IMG/VR virus record: IMGVR_UViG_3300045988_176358
Length of the DNA stretch: 50,565 nucleotides
Direction: 5' to 3' (one strand)
DNA from: a virus
Shown: piece by piece, positions 1 to 50,565 of the stretch
How the letters are laid out: each line of letters starts with the position of its first letter
Position numbering within the stretch: position 1 is the stretch's first letter
Position numbers and translations under genes: made by a program
Notes under the pieces: model-generated
Databases searched by the model: none
What the model saw: the letters and a program-made list of their open reading frames with translations, nothing else
Told to the model about the DNA's origin: nothing

Positions 1-50
1 GATTCGAACCAGCGGAATGCGGGAGTCAAAGTCCCGTGCCTTACCACTTG
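1..50. repeat. Terminal 50-nt direct repeat. 1..50 is identical to 50516..50565 (closed-circle or assembly overlap; unit length 50,515 bp).
   Basis: Read base by base: gattcgaaccagcggaatgcgggagtcaaagtcccgtgccttaccacttg occurs at both ends. The repeat lies inside a tRNA gene that is complete only when the ends are joined. Confidence 0.95.
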
Positions 51-61
51 GCGATATCCCA
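1..61 (-). tRNA. tRNA-Gln(UUG), 5' portion. The remainder of the same gene is 50504..50565, across the circular junction.
   Basis: The joined reverse complement reads TGGGATA TC GCCA AGTGGTA AGGC A CGGGA CTTTGAC TCCCG CATTCC GCTGG TTCGAAT CCAGC TATCCCA A CCA. It has a 7-bp acceptor stem with U1-A72 (a tRNA-Gln hallmark), anticodon loop CU-UUG-AC, a canonical T arm and an encoded CCA. It is close to the E. coli tRNA-Gln as I recall it. Confidence 0.85.
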
Positions 62-226
62 TTGGAGGCCTCCAGAAGCGGTGAGACTCCTGGAGGAATG
101 AGGCCACACTGGAGGTATGTCCAAATTGATGCCAAGCATTTAAATGCACTCACCTGCTTCGACTCTGCATTTACACGGGCTTGTCACCGTTTGTATATCA
201 AAACTGAATACAAGCTGCATTACATT

Positions 227-245
227 GGGGAGCAATATACTCCCC
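227..245 (-). terminator. Hairpin downstream of CDS 256..621 (weak terminator candidate, no U tract).
   Basis: On the minus strand: GGGGAG-TATATTG-CTCCCC, 11 nt after the stop codon. Confidence 0.3.
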
Positions 246-5807: not shown

Positions 5808-6218
5808 TTACTCCTCAACAATAATGCGGTCTTCGGTTGTCACTTGCATGCTCTTGCTCTTGTATAACCAACGATTGAGGCGCTCAATTTTTGAGGTCTT
5901 TCTTCGTGATAGGTCTTCAGAGTCAATACCCAAGATTGCTTTGACATGCTTCAGAATGATTTCTACATCCGCAACTTCATCGAGTGCTTTCTCATAGAGT
6001 TCTGCTCTTGCTTTTTCTTCAGAATCATATCTTGGGTACTTTGCAAGTACACATGCCAGCTCGTTTAACTCTTCAATACTTACAAGAATCTGATTCCGAG
6101 CACCGTATGTTTTTCTTGCTGCTTCAAGGGTTTCATCTTCCCATTGTTCGCTTGTTAACACCAACACAATCACAGCCCCTTTATGTATTATTGTCCTCCG
6201 CAGTCCAAGACCATGCAT
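5808..6218 (-). CDS. MazG-like (all-alpha) nucleoside triphosphate pyrophosphohydrolase.
   Basis: Motifs IEELNELACV and DEVADVEIIL are typical of the MazG/dCTPase superfamily. The start is uncertain: the ORF ATG at 6218 overlaps the deaminase gene by 38 nt, and GTG 6167 has an AAGGGG RBS. Confidence 0.7.
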   Translation of the reverse strand: MHGLGLRRTIIHKGAVIVLVLTSEQWEDETLEAARKTYGARNQILVSIEELNELACVLAKYPRYDSEEKARAELYEKALDEVADVEIILKHVKAILGIDSEDLSRRKTSKIERLNRWLYKSKSMQVTTEDRIIVEE

Positions 6219-6660
6219 GAACCACTTCTACATTTGCTGACTCAAATATTCTCACAGTCTCTTCGCTGATGCTTTCGCTACGTCCATATACAACCCTGAG
6301 AATTCCTGCGGCAACAATAGCTCTCGCACATGCTTCACATGGATAGCGAGTTACATAGATGACTTTTGGAGCGTTGCAGGTACCAGAAACATGACAGATA
6401 GCATCAATTTCACTATGAAGTGCTCGGCAATCAGATGGGAGTCTATGAGCTTTTGCGTTGTCACCATATTTTTCAATACGCAAACAACCTCTGTAACGGC
6501 ATAAATCTGGAATAGCAGCATTTGCGCCAAAAGCAATGATGCTTCCATTAGAGCTTGTTATAATAGAGCCAACTTTGACTTTTGTACACCCAGAGAACTT
6601 CAATGCATATTCATGCGCAAGGTTAAGGTATTCTTCAGTGGTCATTCTTCTATTGCCCAT
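6181..6660 (-). CDS. dCMP / deoxycytidylate deaminase (zinc-dependent CDA fold).
   Basis: 159 aa with HSE (HAE-type) and PCEAC zinc-binding motifs at ComEB/dCMP deaminase spacing. Confidence 0.88.
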   Translation of the reverse strand: MGNRRMTTEEYLNLAHEYALKFSGCTKVKVGSIITSSNGSIIAFGANAAIPDLCRYRGCLRIEKYGDNAKAHRLPSDCRALHSEIDAICHVSGTCNAPKVIYVTRYPCEACARAIVAAGILRVVYGRSESISEETVRIFESANVEVVHAWSWTAEDNNT

Positions 6661-6828: not shown

Positions 6829-7863
6829 TTATCTCTCCTCAGGTATTTTGTATTTGACTCGAGGACGACCAGTGCCCTCTATTGTCCTAATGTATTTGCT
6901 CAACTCACAGAAACAGTTCTCCAGGCTCATCACATTCATCTTTCTATCGTACCTTGGTAAATCCCTGAACAGTTCCTCTGGGCACCAAATAGGCCCACTG
7001 TAGTCTGTATTAGCAAGATGATTGATGAAATAGTCATCTATTCGGTCTCTAAGGTAGAACAAGGCTTCCTCATAGTTCAACCCATCGAAGTCATCGAAGA
7101 CATATTCGAGTCCTTTTTTGCATCCTGGGCCAGCCACAACAAATTCATTCTCTGAGAAAGGGAACTCTTCTATATAAGTAAGGTCTACAAAAACCTGGTA
7201 AGCCAAAAAATCAGCAAAGCCTCTTACAGACTTGATAACATTGAAAGCCTCCTGTTGGTCTACAGCATCTAAGAGTCTTCCTACAATGTTTCCCTCTTTG
7301 AGCCATGGTCCAATATGGAATACTCGTAAAGGGATATCAAGCTCTTTGTCTTTTCCAATTTCGTGCGGATACCTCCAGGATTGCTTTGTACCACCTTGAT
7401 TGTATGCTGACGACCACCATTTTCGTTCTGGGTCTTTCTTTAAAATACGACGATAGATTTCACGTGTGCATTCCTTTAATGCTGGGTCATAAATCATTTC
7501 GGCTGTCCATGGTCCACCAAAACTGTACATTGTTGACCAATTATTCCAGGCTCGAAATAGAAATGTATTGAGAATTTTTTCTTCAAGTGTAAGACGTTCA
7601 TTTGTGCTGATGTATTTAATGAGATACTGAGTTTGCTTGTCATGCTCTCTACGAATATTTGTAAACCTGTATTGTGAGATGACTTTGTCCTTTGTCCAAG
7701 GTCCAGGAAGATGCTTGATGTCTTTTCGCAAATGAACTCTGTATCGCTCAACAATAAAAGTGAGCAGATGTGACATATTCTTATCATTCAGTATTGGCTC
7801 AGCACAAAGGATTTTCTCTTCATCCACGCCACAGTACAATCTATCCCTTGATTTGGTTTTCAT
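6829..7863 (-). CDS. Putative DNA base-hypermodification enzyme, aGPT-Pplase-like (alpha-glutamyl/putrescinyl-thymine pyrophosphorylase family). Assigned at motif level only.
   Basis: 344 aa. GPWTKDKVISQYRFTNIRREHDKQT and GFADFLAYQVFVDLTY...GPGCKKGL resemble the PWT.D.IL..FCNV.RE.D..T and F.AYQ...DL signatures I associate with this family. It lies beside deaminase and MazG genes. Confidence 0.45.
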   Translation of the reverse strand: MKTKSRDRLYCGVDEEKILCAEPILNDKNMSHLLTFIVERYRVHLRKDIKHLPGPWTKDKVISQYRFTNIRREHDKQTQYLIKYISTNERLTLEEKILNTFLFRAWNNWSTMYSFGGPWTAEMIYDPALKECTREIYRRILKKDPERKWWSSAYNQGGTKQSWRYPHEIGKDKELDIPLRVFHIGPWLKEGNIVGRLLDAVDQQEAFNVIKSVRGFADFLAYQVFVDLTYIEEFPFSENEFVVAGPGCKKGLEYVFDDFDGLNYEEALFYLRDRIDDYFINHLANTDYSGPIWCPEELFRDLPRYDRKMNVMSLENCFCELSKYIRTIEGTGRPRVKYKIPEER

Positions 7864-8968: not shown

Positions 8969-9214
8969 TTATTTTTGCTCGATGTGAAGAATATCCCAAA
9001 TTTCTTTACGAAATCTGTAATGCAACCCAACGACTGACATCACCTGACTATGCAATGCGGGATTGAGTTTCTGTAAACGATACTTCATGTGCCAACCAAC
9101 AGTGCTCAGTGGGACATTGAACTTTTGAGCAACTTGTGAATAGCTTGCAAATTTCAGGATTAAATAATGCGCTTCTTGCTCTACAAATGTGTCGTCATAT
9201 TTTTGTCTCATCAT
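8969..9214 (-). CDS. SpoIIID-like helix-turn-helix DNA-binding protein.
   Basis: 81 aa from ATG 9214 (RBS AAAGGGG). VAQKFNVPLSTVGWHMKYRLQKLNPALHSQV aligns by eye with B. subtilis SpoIIID IAKEFGVSKSTVHKDLTERLPEINPDLANEV. Confidence 0.55.
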   Translation of the reverse strand: MMRQKYDDTFVEQEAHYLILKFASYSQVAQKFNVPLSTVGWHMKYRLQKLNPALHSQVMSVVGLHYRFRKEIWDILHIEQK

Positions 9215-9227
9215 TGTAATACCCCTT

Positions 9228-9884
9228 TCATGCACCAATGCTTCGCTTATCCATGCAGGATTTGCCATCGTATACACCCTGCTCATACACATCTTTACGG
9301 AGGAAGCCTTTTGTTGTCAAACCACCCTTATGGTTTTTCAGTGATGGAAACTGCTTAGAGAATTCTTGTTTAACATCTTCAGGAACAACAAGAACAAGTG
9401 CAGTACACTGAACATCCAGCTTCTGTCTAATGCCAGAAAGAAATCCGGAAACATAGCTATTGAACACATTCTTTGGGTCTTCACAATTTCGACGAGCCTG
9501 AGCAACACACCTATCACCCATTTTCTTTGCAAAATGATATGCGTATTCAAAAGCAGATTTTGCTACCTTGGCATCTTGAGCCCAACCGAAAAATGCAACC
9601 TGTTTATTTTCAAGAAGAATTGCCTTGCAACGGAAATTGCGAGCAATAATCGTAGCAAGCTGACAGCGGAATCCTTTGTCTCCTTTGTGAACGCAAGTCT
9701 CAAGACCATACGAAACTTTGTCTTGAACACCATCCACCATGCTTGTTTCGACACCATATTGTGCCATCAGTTCTTGAGCTTTAAGAAGTGCAGCCTGAGC
9801 TTCTTCTTCACTATTATTGCGAGCTTTGTCTGCGAGAGCCAAAAGTTTTTGAATTTTCTTGACGATTGCTTCATTCATTTCCAT
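9228..9884 (-). CDS. DUF2786-family protein.
   Basis: The N-terminus IVKKIQKLLALADKARNNSEEEAQAALLKAQELMAQYGV is the DUF2786 signature as I recall it. RBS AAAGGAG. Confidence 0.7.
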   Translation of the reverse strand: MEMNEAIVKKIQKLLALADKARNNSEEEAQAALLKAQELMAQYGVETSMVDGVQDKVSYGLETCVHKGDKGFRCQLATIIARNFRCKAILLENKQVAFFGWAQDAKVAKSAFEYAYHFAKKMGDRCVAQARRNCEDPKNVFNSYVSGFLSGIRQKLDVQCTALVLVVPEDVKQEFSKQFPSLKNHKGGLTTKGFLRKDVYEQGVYDGKSCMDKRSIGA

Positions 9885-12364: not shown

Positions 12365-12958
12365 TCATTTCTTATTTTGTTTTCGGCTCGATGTGTACCT
12401 CACACAGCTATATTGTACTACTCCTTTCTCTGTTTGTAAAGAGGTTTTACAAAAATTTTTTACACTTTTAATGATTCTGCTCACATAGCTTTGGGACAAT
12501 CCACAGTATTTAGCAATATCAGCTTGGCGTTTTCCATTCATATACATGCATACAATGTTTTTATCACGTTCATTTTTGATGTGAGACAATGCTTGCTTCA
12601 TCAACATTCTTGTTTCAAGCTCAGAGATGCGGTCAGATGGGTCTCCTAGAATATCTTTAAATGCTGTATCGCCCTCTGTGGCTGGTACTGAGTCCTCAAA
12701 ATACAAACTGGGTTTTATTTTGTTTTTATTTCTGCGCCATTCTTGTTTCACTTCATTGAGCATCACAGTGTAAGCATATGTCATAAATGGGATGCCCTTT
12801 TCCTTTGTATAGCTTCTCGCTGCTTTGCACAATCCAATAGCAACAATATCGAAATAGTCTTCATCTAGATTCTGCTTTTGCATAAAATAGTATATGTATC
12901 TGTAATGCTGCTCTGCAAGTTCACGCTGAGCGTCTGTCAGTTTTTCCACGCATTTCAT
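12365..12958 (-). CDS. Phage-encoded sigma-70-family RNA polymerase sigma factor (regions 2 and 4).
   Basis: Region 2-like: DIVAIGLCKAARSYTKEKGIPFMTYAYTVMLNEV. Region 4 HTH: RQADIAKYCGLSQSYVSRIIKSV. The ORF reaches 13006, but promoter 12984..13012 lies inside that extension. The start is probably ATG 12958 or GTG 12949. Confidence 0.8.
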   Translation of the reverse strand: MKCVEKLTDAQRELAEQHYRYIYYFMQKQNLDEDYFDIVAIGLCKAARSYTKEKGIPFMTYAYTVMLNEVKQEWRRNKNKIKPSLYFEDSVPATEGDTAFKDILGDPSDRISELETRMLMKQALSHIKNERDKNIVCMYMNGKRQADIAKYCGLSQSYVSRIIKSVKNFCKTSLQTEKGVVQYSCVRYTSSRKQNKK

Positions 12959-12983
12959 CTCCTCAGTTTTATTACTTGAGCTT

Positions 12984-13012
12984 ATTATACTCTCTTGGAA
13001 ACTCATTGTAAA
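12984..13012 (-). promoter_or_regulatory. Promoter of the sigma-factor operon (left half of a divergent pair).
   Basis: Minus strand: TTTACA (13007..13012), 17 nt, TATAAT (12984..12989). Confidence 0.6.
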
Positions 13013-49231: not shown

Positions 49232-50215
49232 TTACTCCTCTCCTATCACTACAACATCATCTCGTGGATGAACTTCATAGTCATGTTCAATAAGATGCTT
49301 TAAATCCCCCTGAGTTAACTCAGTGAAGCAGATGTCCCTGTATGAACAAAACTTGCAATCAGGAGTCATATTCTTTGTCTTATTTTTATGCCCTTGCCGA
49401 ACGATATCCCGACAAGTATAGACAAACCCCTCCCAAACATTTTCAACCATATAGGGTACAATATCAAGCTCGCATCGGAAGAAAAAATTGCTCACATTTG
49501 CTGCATAATCATTTCCCTCTTGCAGAACTTTTATGTCCTTTATTCCTCGGAGTTCACAAGCTCTTCTCCAAGAAAAAGGTGTGATATTGTTGCTTTTTGC
49601 TTTGCTGAATCGGTTAGATTTCGGTAGCCAAATTGGCATTGAAGCAGGAGTAGAATGGATGTAATCCCATATCACAGACTTTGGTAATACTCCTGTCATC
49701 ATCTGAACAGCCTTTGCGTATAAGCTTTTTTGAGTGTTCATTACAAGAACATTTTGGTCTGGCTTTCTGTTGAAAGTTTTATGCTCACCAAGTTTACACA
49801 TCTTTTCGCCTTTATGGCGATATTTGTAAAGCTCATCAATAACTCCGTTGAATATGACTGGCTCGCCTTTTACATTACAGATTTCAAGTTCAAAAGGACG
49901 CTCTGTTTGTGTTGGCTGTGGAGCATCTTTATAGATTTCCATGTAGTCTGAAAAGATACACTGAAGCTCAAATAGATAGTCTTCACCGAGTTCTTCTTGC
50001 CATTGTGGCTTCAATTCATAGTACTGCTCACCAATGGTCTTCTGTGCTTCAGCAAGTTTCTCAGGGTCATTGCGGAGTTCCAAAAGTTTGTGAAAATCTG
50101 TGCCAAAGTATAGGGGCCTCACAGGCTTTTTTGCTCTAAGGCATTCATAGTACCCAAGATAATGTCTGTATGGACAGCGCAAATATGAAGAAAATCTAGA
50201 ATATGAAATCTTCAT
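49232..50215 (-). CDS. PD-(D/E)XK Cas4/RecB-like exonuclease with a 4-Cys cluster.
   Basis: 327 aa. N-terminal C (YLRCPYRHY) plus C-terminal CKFCSYRDIC. Core GVIDELYKY...GEHKTF. RBS AAGGAG. Confidence 0.8.
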   Translation of the reverse strand: MKISYSRFSSYLRCPYRHYLGYYECLRAKKPVRPLYFGTDFHKLLELRNDPEKLAEAQKTIGEQYYELKPQWQEELGEDYLFELQCIFSDYMEIYKDAPQPTQTERPFELEICNVKGEPVIFNGVIDELYKYRHKGEKMCKLGEHKTFNRKPDQNVLVMNTQKSLYAKAVQMMTGVLPKSVIWDYIHSTPASMPIWLPKSNRFSKAKSNNITPFSWRRACELRGIKDIKVLQEGNDYAANVSNFFFRCELDIVPYMVENVWEGFVYTCRDIVRQGHKNKTKNMTPDCKFCSYRDICFTELTQGDLKHLIEHDYEVHPRDDVVVIGEE

Positions 50216-50224
50216 GCTGTTCTC

Positions 50225-50304
50225 CTTATAAGTAATACATTGTTATGGTCCAAGCGGTTGGAATCGAACCAACGACCTCTCAGTGTTTCGCATGCTGAGC
50301 GCCC
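50225..50304 (-). tRNA. tRNA-like gene A: canonical cloverleaf arms but an 11-nt anticodon loop. Isotype undetermined.
   Basis: Reverse complement: CCAAGTG TG GCAC AGTAGGTA GGGC G CTCAG CATGCGAAACA CTGAG AGGTC GTTGG TTCGATT CCAAC CGCTTGG A CCA. Perfect 5-bp anticodon stem, standard variable loop and T arm, encoded CCA. Confidence 0.7.
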
Positions 50305-50311
50305 TACCTAC

Positions 50312-50391
50312 TGTGCCACACTTGGAAATGTTTGGAGGAGGTCAGATTCGAACTGACAACAACCCTGAATCGTTGTGGAGCTCCGGGGCTT
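50312..50391 (-). tRNA. tRNA-like gene B: canonical acceptor, D and T arms with a non-canonical anticodon region. Isotype undetermined.
   Basis: Reverse complement: GGAGGAG TA GCTT AATTGGAA AAGC C CCGGA G-CTCCACAACGA-T TCAGG GTTGTT GTCAG TTCGAAT CTGAC CTCCTCC A. The alternative fold ACAAC-GATTCAGG-GTTGT has an 8-nt loop resembling a Leu(CAG) loop. Confidence 0.55.
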
Positions 50392-50503
50392 TTCCAATTA
50401 AGCTACTCCTCCAAGAAGTCGCCCCGATGACGGGTCGAGGCGGCTCTGTTTTGTGCCCACCATCTGGGATGTGAGCTATTCAATTTTTACCCTCTCGGGC
50501 TGG

Positions 50504-50565
50504 TTGGGATAGCTGGATTCGAACCAGCGGAATGCGGGAGTCAAAGTCCCGTGCCTTACCACTTG
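50504..50565 (-). tRNA. tRNA-Gln(UUG), 3' portion (continues at 51..61 after circularisation). An encoded CCA lies at 50501..50503.
   Basis: See feature 1..61. The T arm GCTGG TTCGAAT CCAGC and the acceptor 3' strand TATCCCA are read here. Confidence 0.85.

What the first reader, a model, noticed from the sequence alone, without database searches (positions are those of the whole stretch)
50225..50391. Two adjacent tRNA-like genes with canonical arms but expanded (about 11-nt) anticodon loops
**What the sequence shows:**
- Gene A folds into a textbook cloverleaf: 7-bp acceptor, D arm with AGTAGGTA loop, AGGTC variable loop, GTTGG-TTCGATT-CCAAC T arm and encoded CCA. Its perfect 5-bp anticodon stem CTCAG/CTGAG, however, encloses CATGCGAAACA, which is 11 nt instead of 7.
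- Gene B lies 7 nt away and likewise has clean acceptor, D and T arms. The best canonical-position anticodon stem (CCGGA/TCAGG, one G.A mismatch, extendable by one G.U pair) encloses CTCCACAACGA, again 11 nt.
- Gene B has an alternative hairpin, ACAAC/GTTGT, with an 8-nt loop GAUUCAGG resembling a Leu(CAG) loop.
- The neighbouring tRNA-Gln(UUG) is normal, so this is not generally sloppy sequence.

**Established knowledge:** functional tRNAs almost always have 7-nt loops. Loops of 8-9 nt occur in frameshift-suppressor tRNAs. Phage tRNAs with altered anticodon loops have been reported to escape host anticodon nucleases.

**Inference:** these could be decoys or inhibitors for anticodon-loop-targeting defence nucleases, unusual decoders, processing elements, or decayed pseudogenes. 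I folded them by hand, so the loop sizes need software confirmation.
Basis: seen in the sequence. Interest (0 to 1): 0.65.

Follow-up and report, generated by a model that had tools for sequence, protein, structure and literature searches.

The report
Two degenerate tRNA genes in a gut phage
Two neighbouring phage genes still fold like the upper half of a tRNA but have oversized, non-standard anticodon arms, so they are most likely broken tRNA genes that no longer read codons; this is of modest interest, not a new kind of system.

Summary
On the minus strand, gene A (50325..50246) and gene B (50412..50333) are real tRNA-like genes (Rfam tRNA 45.9 and 46.4 bits). Their acceptor, D and T arms and tertiary-core bases are intact. 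Neither has a proper 7-nt anticodon loop: A has a perfect 5-bp stem around 11 nt, and B has 11-13 nt in the canonical register or, more stably, a displaced hairpin with an 8-nt loop.

They lie in a non-coding RNA island (twister ribozyme, tRNA-Gln, B, A) inside the replication operon of a circular ~50.5-kb human-gut phage.

- Neither gene occurs outside this phage species and one sister lineage.
- B is present in all 14 genomes examined. In the sister lineage it has a compensatory T-stem change.
- A is missing from 3 of 13 near-identical genomes and reduced to a stub in the sister lineage.
- B's body resembles the family's tRNA-Gly(UCC); A's resembles tRNA-Pro/Phe.
- Relatives carry normal tRNAs, or other malformed ones, at this locus.

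Best reading: these are descendants of ordinary tRNA genes that no longer decode. B is kept for its tRNA-shaped top half, probably as an RNase P/Z processing signal. A is being lost. Nothing supports a decoy or an unusual decoder.

The parts
50246..50325 (-). Gene A: an 80-nt tRNA-like gene with encoded CCA. It has a 7-bp acceptor stem (C1-G72, A73), a D arm with one A12.G23 mismatch, variable loop AGGUC and T arm GUUGG-UUCGAUU-CCAAC.
   Evidence: RF00005 45.9 bits; ARAGORN. Tertiary-core bases U8, A14, G15:C48, G18G19, A21 and the GTTCGA T-loop were read from the sequence.
50279..50299 (-). Gene A anticodon arm: perfect 5-bp stem CUCAG/CUGAG around the 11-nt loop CAUGCGAAACA (loop = 50284..50294). 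It contains the palindrome GCAUGC.
   Evidence: Pairing probability 0.85. The loop was located. There is one population variant, C10->U, in L099.
50326..50332 (-). 7-nt spacer AACAUUU between gene B and gene A.
50333..50412 (-). Gene B: an 80-nt tRNA-like gene ending at discriminator A, with no encoded CCA. It has a perfect 7-bp acceptor stem, a D arm GCUU-AAUUGGAA-AAGC and a T arm GUCAG-UUCGAAU-CUGAC.
   Evidence: RF00005 46.4 bits; ARAGORN. It is present in all 13 near-identical genomes and in sister lineage L102.
50364..50386 (-). Gene B anticodon arm in the canonical register: CCGGA/UCAGG with a G.A mismatch, around a 13-nt loop (11 nt if the G.U pair closes it). Loop = 50369..50381. It contains the palindrome GGAGCUCC.
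   Evidence: Infernal alignment. Ensemble probability about 0.05. This arm aligns with the anticodon arm CCUGC-CUUCCAA-GCAGG of the family's tRNA-Gly(UCC).
50359..50376 (-). Gene B alternative hairpin ACAAC-GAUUCAGG-GUUGU. It is formed by the inserted bases pairing with the former variable loop.
   Evidence: Present in the minimum-free-energy structure. Probability about 0.75.
50501..50565 (-). 3' part of the canonical tRNA-Gln(UUG). Its 5' end continues at window 61..51, because the window ends repeat 50 nt.
   Evidence: 50-nt terminal repeat.
157..226 (-). Twister-P1 self-cleaving ribozyme candidate at the head of the RNA island. A GC-rich hairpin lies immediately 5' of it at 227..245.
   Evidence: RF03160 56.1 bits, E 8.6e-12, below the gathering score of 67.2. 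It sits at the same place in relatives. Six stem pairs show compensatory changes across 7 lineages.
49232..50215 (-). PD-(D/E)XK nuclease gene whose start codon lies 30 nt downstream of gene A. It was used as the anchor for all comparisons.
   Evidence: Pfam PF12705, E 1e-18.

Best explanation
Genes A and B are descendants of ordinary phage tRNA genes whose anticodon arms were remodelled by small insertions and substitutions, so they can no longer pair with a codon in the normal way. B's body resembles the family's tRNA-Gly(UCC). A's body resembles tRNA-Pro(UGG)/tRNA-Phe(GAA). Both keep an intact acceptor/T-arm minihelix and D/T elbow.

Inferred mechanism: they are transcribed as part of the long minus-strand replication operon (DNA polymerase A, 121-aa ORF, twister, tRNA-Gln, B, A, nuclease and onward). 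The tRNA-shaped top half is still recognised by RNase P at the 5' end and by RNase Z (B, no CCA) or 3' trimming (A, CCA encoded). They are therefore excised like tRNAs and cut the transcript just upstream of the nuclease mRNA.

B is maintained for this decoding-independent, tRNA-shape-dependent role. A is dispensable and is being lost.
For: Shown:
- Both are significant tRNA matches whose only gross defect is the anticodon arm. All tertiary-core positions are canonical (read).
- With a model built from B, the best hit other than B itself is the family's tRNA-Gly(UCC) in L008 (48.7 bits; next best 42.3). The arm CCUGC-CUUCCAA-GCAGG aligns to B's CCGGA-...CUCCA...-UCAGG.
- With a model built from A, the top hits are phage tRNA-Phe (60.5, 57.3 bits) and the tRNA-Pro(UGG) that occupies the same position in 78%-identity relatives (55.9 bits). 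That tRNA-Pro shares C1-G72, A73 and CCA with A.
- Within the species the tRNA-like genes are far more conserved than the spacers. Polymorphic sites: B 2.5%, A 1.3%, tRNA-Gln 1.3%, the Gln-B spacer 32%.
- In sister lineage L102 the three substitutions outside B's D loop all fall in the T stem and keep it paired (U-A to C-G; G-C to G.U). A simulation of three random substitutions gives such an outcome with probability about 0.005. The odd loop is identical in both lineages, so this selection acted after the loop was remodelled.
- A is absent from L001, L097 and L116, and reduced to about 13 nt in L102.
- The region has no sigma-70-like promoter or same-strand terminator and no credible ORF. A twister ribozyme lies at its head, which fits a processed polycistronic RNA.

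Inferred, not shown: transcription, RNase P/Z cleavage, and any benefit of that cleavage.
Against: - There are no expression data.
- Many relatives have no tRNA-like element in front of the nuclease gene (L009-L018, L025-L032). Punctuation there is therefore not essential for the family.
- B's central 30 nt are invariant in every copy. Pure top-half selection would not predict that, although recombination between lineages (the L098 haplotype shares L102's spacer) may make B younger than the 79% protein identity suggests.
- The shuffle control on the 4-sequence alignment has little power: 110 of 500 shuffles reach the observed covariation.
- B's most stable fold sequesters the variable loop and competes with the D stem, so the L-shape is not assured.
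Confidence: 0.5

Rival explanations
1. Both genes are plain pseudogenes with no remaining function. They are recent casualties of the rapid birth and death of tRNA genes at this locus, not yet deleted.
For: - Gene A is present or absent among near-identical genomes and is a stub in L102.
- A's D stem carries a double change that breaks a pair (A12.G23) relative to the tRNA-Phe/Pro bodies.
- About a quarter of the distinct tRNA-like genes at this locus in relatives are malformed. Examples: 6-nt loops in L102 tRNA-Gln, L020 and L104; a 26-nt insert in L108; a D-loop insert in L122.
- No homologue exists outside the lineage.
Against: - B is retained in 14 of 14 genomes, with pair-preserving T-stem substitutions that arose after the loop was remodelled (p about 0.005).
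- Both bodies keep every tertiary-core base.
- Both are 10-25 times less polymorphic than the adjacent Gln-B spacer.
Confidence: 0.27
2. They are tRNA mimics that act as decoys or sponges for host tRNA-targeting defence nucleases or toxins. They bind the effector through the tRNA body and cannot disturb translation because they cannot decode.
For: - The body is intact while the anticodon arm is disabled, and B is conserved.
- Phage tRNAs are known to counter anticodon nucleases (PMC10264068, PMC11555353, PMC11464382).
Against: - The published cases are functional tRNAs with point changes, not enlarged loops. The eLife paper has no mention of 'decoy', 'insertion' or 'loop size'.
- Loops of 11-13 nt resemble no target anticodon loop.
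- The genes are confined to one phage species and its sister lineage, and A is dispensable.
- No associated anti-defence gene was identified.
Confidence: 0.1
3. They are functional decoders with non-standard reading (multi-base codons or frameshifting), or they are trimmed or spliced to a normal 7-nt loop after transcription.
For: - Loops of 8 nt occur in natural tRNAs, for example yeast mitochondrial tRNA-Thr1 (PMC4267643).
- B's alternative hairpin has an 8-nt loop. A shifted register gives a canonical-looking AACGA-UUCAGGG-UUGUU arm.
Against: - A's 11-nt loop has no U at the U33 position in any register.
- B's alternative arms leave 0-1 nt of variable region and 11-13 nt between the D and anticodon arms.
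- The phage's ORFs are long and uninterrupted in the standard code.
- The inserts of 4-6 nt have no bulge-helix-bulge motif and are far too small for a group I intron.
- No RNA ligase or splicing endonuclease was found among the ORFs tested.
Confidence: 0.05

Closest known systems
Pseudo-tRNA or 'undetermined' tRNA genes in phage tRNA clusters, and the stable tRNA-like RNAs (species 1 and 2, rnaC/rnaD) in the phage T4 tRNA cluster (from my own knowledge, not checked here)
   Same: They sit in a phage tRNA cluster and are co-oriented with it. They have tRNA-like acceptor/T features but no usable anticodon, and their function is unknown.
   Different: Here the whole tertiary core is intact and only the anticodon arm is enlarged. 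One copy (B) shows pair-preserving evolution after the defect arose.
Phage tRNAs that evade anticodon nucleases through anticodon-loop mutations (PMC10264068; PMC11555353; PMC11464382)
   Same: These are phage-encoded tRNAs whose anticodon loop differs from the host norm.
   Different: The published tRNAs keep a 7-nt loop and still decode. A and B have loops of 11-13 (or 8) nt and cannot be assigned an anticodon.
Expanded-anticodon-loop tRNAs: frameshift suppressors with 8-nt loops and yeast mitochondrial tRNA-Thr1 (PMC4267643)
   Same: The anticodon loop is larger than 7 nt on an otherwise normal tRNA body.
   Different: Those loops have 8 (at most 9-10 in engineered cases, from my own knowledge) nucleotides and retain U33. 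A has 11 nt without U33.
tRNA punctuation of polycistronic transcripts (mitochondria; bacterial mixed tRNA-mRNA operons such as thrU-tufB; from my own knowledge)
   Same: tRNA-shaped elements embedded between coding regions on one strand, positioned so that RNase P/Z cleavage would separate the mRNAs.
   Different: Processing was not shown here, and many relatives manage without such an element at this site.
Self-cleaving ribozymes next to phage tRNAs (HDV-like theta ribozymes, PMC10879173)
   Same: A small self-cleaving ribozyme sits in the same non-coding island as gut-phage tRNA genes.
   Different: The ribozyme here is a twister-P1 type lying upstream of the tRNAs. That paper does not mention twister, and this phage shows no stop-codon recoding.

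Membership tests
tRNA (Rfam RF00005) | Cloverleaf with a 7-bp acceptor stem, D arm with G18G19, T arm with the GTTCRA loop, and a score above the gathering threshold (29 bits) | tested here: met
   A 45.9 bits, B 46.4 bits; ARAGORN cloverleaves.
tRNA (functional decoder) | A 5-bp anticodon stem closing a 7-nt loop with U33 and a purine at position 37 | tested here: not met
   A has an 11-nt loop; its only 7-nt register needs two mismatches and lacks U33. B has 11-13 nt in register, or a displaced 8- or 7-nt loop with 0-1 nt of variable region.
tRNA (functional decoder) | Aminoacylation and use on the ribosome | not testable with these tools
   Needs charging assays or tRNA-seq.
Quadruplet or frameshift-suppressor tRNAs | An 8-9-nt anticodon loop with a U33 equivalent, and matching codon contexts in the genome | tested here: not met
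   Loop sizes are 11 and 11-13. The ORFs are uninterrupted in the standard code. B's 8-nt alternative loop is inconclusive on its own.
Intron-containing tRNA genes | A group I intron (over 200 nt), or a bulge-helix-bulge intron at position 37/38 | tested here: not met
   The extra sequence is only 4-6 nt. No splicing endonuclease or ligase domain was found among the ORFs tested.
Anticodon-nuclease-evading phage tRNAs | A canonical, decoding tRNA carrying loop or stem substitutions that block cleavage | tested here: not met
   The loop is not canonical. Resistance to a nuclease cannot be tested here.
tRNA pseudogene | Clear tRNA ancestry plus loss of an essential element | tested here: met
   Ancestry. 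Defective anticodon arm.
tRNA pseudogene | No remaining selective constraint (free decay, frequent loss) | tested here: inconclusive
   Met for A: lost in 3 of 13 genomes and in L102, with a broken D-stem pair. Not met for B: always present, with a compensatory T-stem change, p about 0.005. The shuffle control has low power.
Twister-P1 ribozyme (RF03160), context element | Conserved core (AAUGC.GC ... ACGGU.ACAAGCCCGU.UAAA.GCAGAG) with covarying stems | tested here: met
   56.1 bits, E 8.6e-12, below the gathering score of 67.2. Six covarying pairs across 7 lineages. Self-cleavage was not tested.

The most novel reading that the evidence does not exclude
Gene B, and perhaps gene A while it lasts, is a deliberately maintained non-decoding tRNA mimic. 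It would keep a tRNA body and carry a disabled anticodon arm so that it can engage tRNA-binding machinery without entering translation. The partner could be RNase P/Z for operon punctuation together with the twister ribozyme, or a host tRNA-targeting defence effector for which it acts as a sponge. The recurrent malformed tRNAs at this locus in related phages would then be the same strategy evolving repeatedly.
Probability: 0.12. Interest if true: 0.7.

Novelty: new member of a known kind. Interest (0 to 1): 0.3.

Why it matters
If these are only degenerate tRNA genes, the main value is practical. ARAGORN labels them tRNA-Ser(CGA) and tRNA-Cys(ACA), and those labels are meaningless, so they should not enter codon-usage or host-range arguments.

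The locus also illustrates how fast tRNA genes are gained, damaged and lost in a widespread family of human-gut phages.

If B is truly maintained for its shape, it would be a natural example of a tRNA body reused as a processing or binding module. Together with a twister ribozyme in the same operon, this could be tested with metatranscriptomes or a simple RNase P assay.

Tried and rejected
- **Homologues with the same loops elsewhere.** Pattern scans of IMG/VR for each loop plus the T-loop returned only the same two contigs; the other hits lie in non-tRNA sequence contexts. A 20-mer from B's centre found only this phage species in JGI metagenomes and nothing in GTDB genomes. D-arm patterns found only unrelated tRNA-Arg genes or coding sequence. 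INPHARED blastn gave only weak generic tRNA matches.
- **Loop base-pairing targets in the phage genome.** There is no complement to either loop beyond chance.
- **attP or integration site.** No integrase was found among the ORFs tested and there is no bacterial copy.
- **Hidden protein gene explaining the conservation.** There are only short chance ORFs, and the longest would be destroyed in the genomes that lack A.
- **B as a homologue of the insert-bearing tRNA-like genes of L108 or L104.** A pairwise alignment looked suggestive. The B model, however, scores them at 25.6 and 24.2 bits, below ordinary tRNAs. L104's element aligns better with tRNA-Gln.
- **B as a former tRNA-Leu(CAG).** This was rejected in favour of tRNA-Gly(UCC) ancestry.
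- **tRNA-repair or modification enzymes in the phage.** None was found among 40 ORFs.
- **A conserved structure in the spacer between twister and tRNA-Gln.** This was inconclusive with only 3 sequences.
- **The nearest deposited relative, bajarodcaudo virus 5.** It has no tRNA or twister between the polymerase and nuclease genes.
- **Pope et al. 2014 on unusual mycobacteriophage tRNAs.** The paper is not held in the library.

Full report
**1. Observation**

The two genes are on the minus strand. Gene A runs 50325..50246 (CCA included) and gene B runs 50412..50333.

- Rfam's tRNA model scores them 45.9 and 46.4 bits against a gathering score of 29. E is about 1e-6 over the whole 50.6-kb window. 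ARAGORN finds both.
- In A, Infernal pairs all five anticodon-stem pairs (CUCAG/CUGAG) and leaves an oversized loop. The loop is CAUGCGAAACA, 11 nt (50294..50284).
- ARAGORN's label for A, 'tRNA-Ser(cga)', comes from a forced 7-nt register (UGCGAAA) with two adjacent mismatches and no U33.
- In B, Infernal pairs only the outer CC/GG and treats 20 nt as an insertion. ARAGORN's 'tRNA-Cys(aca)' is the centre of a 13-nt loop.
- In the partition function, A's stem has probability 0.85. B's canonical-register stem CCGGA/UCAGG has only about 0.05. The alternative hairpin ACAAC-GAUUCAGG-GUUGU has about 0.75. A shifted arm AACGA-UUCAGGG-UUGUU has about 0.16.
- Outside the anticodon arm both genes are canonical: U8, A14, G18G19, A21, the 15:48 Levitt pair (G:C in A, A:U in B), the GTTCGA T-loop and perfect 7-bp acceptor stems (sequence).
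- A has one D-stem mismatch (A12.G23) and encodes CCA. B does not encode CCA.

**2. Context**

- The window ends repeat 50 nt, so this is a circular assembly of about 50.5 kb.
- It is a tailed phage with terminase, DNA polymerase A, primase-helicase, a sigma factor and a set of thymidine-hypermodification genes.
- No integrase was found among the ORFs tested.
- The same nuclease protein is indexed in 176 blocks of the public-assembly collection, and one of the records shown is labelled a human gut metagenome.
- The nearest cultured relatives by polymerase are Clostridium perfringens phages, at 37% identity.
- A and B lie in a 555-nt non-coding island inside a long minus-strand gene block. The order is: polymerase, 121-aa ORF, GC hairpin, twister-P1 ribozyme (226..157; 56.1 bits, E 8.6e-12), spacer, tRNA-Gln(UUG), spacer, B, 7 nt, A, 30 nt, PD-(D/E)XK nuclease gene.
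- The twister recurs at this place in seven lineages, with six covarying pairs.
- The island has no sigma-70-like promoter, no same-strand terminator and no credible ORF.

**3. Comparative evidence**

- In 13 near-identical genomes from independent assemblies, B is always present. Its two variable sites are both in the D loop.
- A is present in 10 of the 13, cleanly absent in 3, and has one loop variant.
- Polymorphic sites per segment: the Gln-B spacer 32%, B 2.5%, A 1.3%, tRNA-Gln 1.3%.
- A sister lineage (L102, nuclease 79% identical) has B with an identical 30-nt centre. Besides one D-loop difference, it has three substitutions, all in the T stem and all pair-preserving (U-A to C-G; G-C to G.U).
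- Three random substitutions give a compensated pair with every pair still standard only 0.5% of the time.
- The tool's shuffle control has little power with four sequences. Recombination between these lineages is also evident, because the L098 haplotype carries L102's spacer.
- L102 retains only about 13 nt of A's 5' end. A has therefore been lost at least twice.
- Neither gene, nor its loop, occurs anywhere else in IMG/VR, JGI metagenomes, GTDB genomes or INPHARED.
- Relatives at 78-79% identity have ordinary tRNA-Thr(UGU) and tRNA-Pro(UGG) at this locus. Many more distant relatives have none.
- Several relatives have other malformed tRNAs. Examples: 6-nt loops (L102 tRNA-Gln, L020, L104), a 26-nt insert in the loop (L108) and a D-loop insert (L122).
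- By my count, roughly a quarter of the distinct tRNA-like genes seen at this locus are defective.

**4. Ancestry**

- A covariance model of B finds the family's tRNA-Gly(UCC) as its best hit other than B itself (48.7 bits; next 42.3). Gly's arm CCUGC-CUUCCAA-GCAGG lies under B's CCGGA-G CUCCA CAACGAU-UCAGG.
- The 'Leu-like' UUCAGG is therefore the end of the insert plus the old 3' stem strand.
- A model of A scores phage tRNA-Phe genes at 60.5 and 57.3 bits. It scores the positionally equivalent tRNA-Pro(UGG) at 55.9 bits.
- A shares its variable loop and T arm exactly with a tRNA-Phe. It shares C1-G72/A73/CCA and its position with the tRNA-Pro. The origin of A is not resolved.
- Both remodelled loops create perfect palindromes: GCAUGC in A and GGAGCUCC in B. 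B's inserted ACAAC is the reverse complement of its own variable-loop GUUGU.
- By my rough estimate the two palindromes would coincide by chance about 2% of the time. The pattern is what template-switch (quasi-palindrome) mutation produces, so each odd loop may stem from one or two complex events. This is inference only.

**5. Mechanism**

- Shown: these are tRNA-derived genes with a disabled anticodon arm and an intact top half. B remained under structural constraint after the defect arose. A is dispensable.
- Inferred: they are co-transcribed with the flanking genes and excised by RNase P and RNase Z or 3' trimming. Those enzymes need only the acceptor/T minihelix and elbow (established knowledge of the enzymes). 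Excision would cut the operon RNA just upstream of the nuclease mRNA, downstream of the twister cut.
- I put 0.5 on this 'non-decoding relics, B kept as a tRNA-shaped processing module' reading.
- The rivals score as follows: both being inert pseudogenes 0.27, a decoy or sponge role 0.1, and unusual decoding or post-transcriptional repair 0.05.
- Against punctuation: many relatives lack any such element, and B's invariant centre is unexplained.

**6. Comparison with known systems**

- The genes pass the structural definition of the tRNA family but fail the anticodon-loop criterion for a decoder.
- They fail the criteria for frameshift-suppressor tRNAs, intron-bearing tRNAs and nuclease-evading phage tRNAs (PMC10264068, PMC11555353, PMC11464382), all of which keep a working loop.
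- The closest known things are pseudo- or undetermined tRNAs in phage clusters and the stable tRNA-like RNAs of the T4 tRNA cluster (from my own knowledge).
- The ribozyme-tRNA neighbourhood recalls the theta ribozymes of gut phages (PMC10879173), but with a different ribozyme class and position.

**7. Verdict**

It is a new member of a known kind, with interest 0.3. The most novel reading still open is a maintained non-decoding tRNA mimic, with probability about 0.12.

Noticed in passing
window 157..226 (-), with a GC hairpin at 227..245 (-): Twister-P1 self-cleaving ribozyme candidate (56.1 bits, E 8.6e-12, below Rfam's gathering score). It lies just after the stop codon of the 121-aa ORF and upstream of the tRNA cluster. 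It is conserved at this place in at least seven related phage lineages, with covarying stems. A GC-rich hairpin always precedes it; after cleavage this hairpin would form the 3' end of the upstream mRNA.
   Followed up: partly
window 6829..7863, 6181..6660, 44346..45251, 45254..45679, 45714..46916, 46705..47703 (all -): A gene set for hypermodified thymidine or other pyrimidines in DNA: 5-hmdU DNA kinase, dCMP deaminase, a thymidylate-synthase homologue, a nucleotide kinase, a radical SAM/SPASM enzyme and a TET-associated glycosyltransferase.
   Followed up: no
window 1..50 and 50516..50565: An exact 50-nt repeat at the window ends, consistent with a circular assembly of about 50,515 bp. The tRNA-Gln(UUG) gene spans this junction.
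   Followed up: yes
window 62..156 (-): The spacer between twister and tRNA-Gln keeps conserved blocks across lineages (UACCUCCA ... GUCUCACC ... GGCCUCCAAUGG) around a hairpin whose stem differs between lineages. In the 78% relatives the UACCUCCA...GGCC motif occurs again after tRNA-Thr. This may be another structured RNA element.
   Followed up: partly
window 50413..50500 (-): The spacer between tRNA-Gln and gene B exists as two very different alleles within one phage species (32% of sites differ). Each allele can form a small hairpin at the same place (CCCA-GAUGG-UGGG versus UGACC-CAGAC-GGUCA). One allele matches sister lineage L102, which indicates recombination.
   Followed up: partly
L102 1220..1293; L020 2541..2610; L104 1147..1234; L108 884..985; L037 306..396; L122 about 27..131; L021 1279..1352: Related phages carry other malformed tRNA-like genes at the same locus. 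These include 6-nt anticodon loops (among them an otherwise good tRNA-Gln), a 26-nt insert in the anticodon loop, a D-loop insert in a tRNA-Ser, and a tRNA-Pro with an 8-bp acceptor stem and a 6-bp anticodon stem.
   Followed up: partly
L004 2906..2980 and L114 1406..1480: The tRNA-Pro(UGG) of two relatives has C instead of the near-universal U at position 33 (loop UCUGGGA versus UUUGGGA in L003).
   Followed up: no
window 12365..13006 (-) and 8969..9292 (-): A phage-encoded sigma-70-family factor and a SpoIIID-like HTH protein. Together with the polymerase similarity to Clostridium perfringens phages, these point to a Firmicutes host.
   Followed up: no
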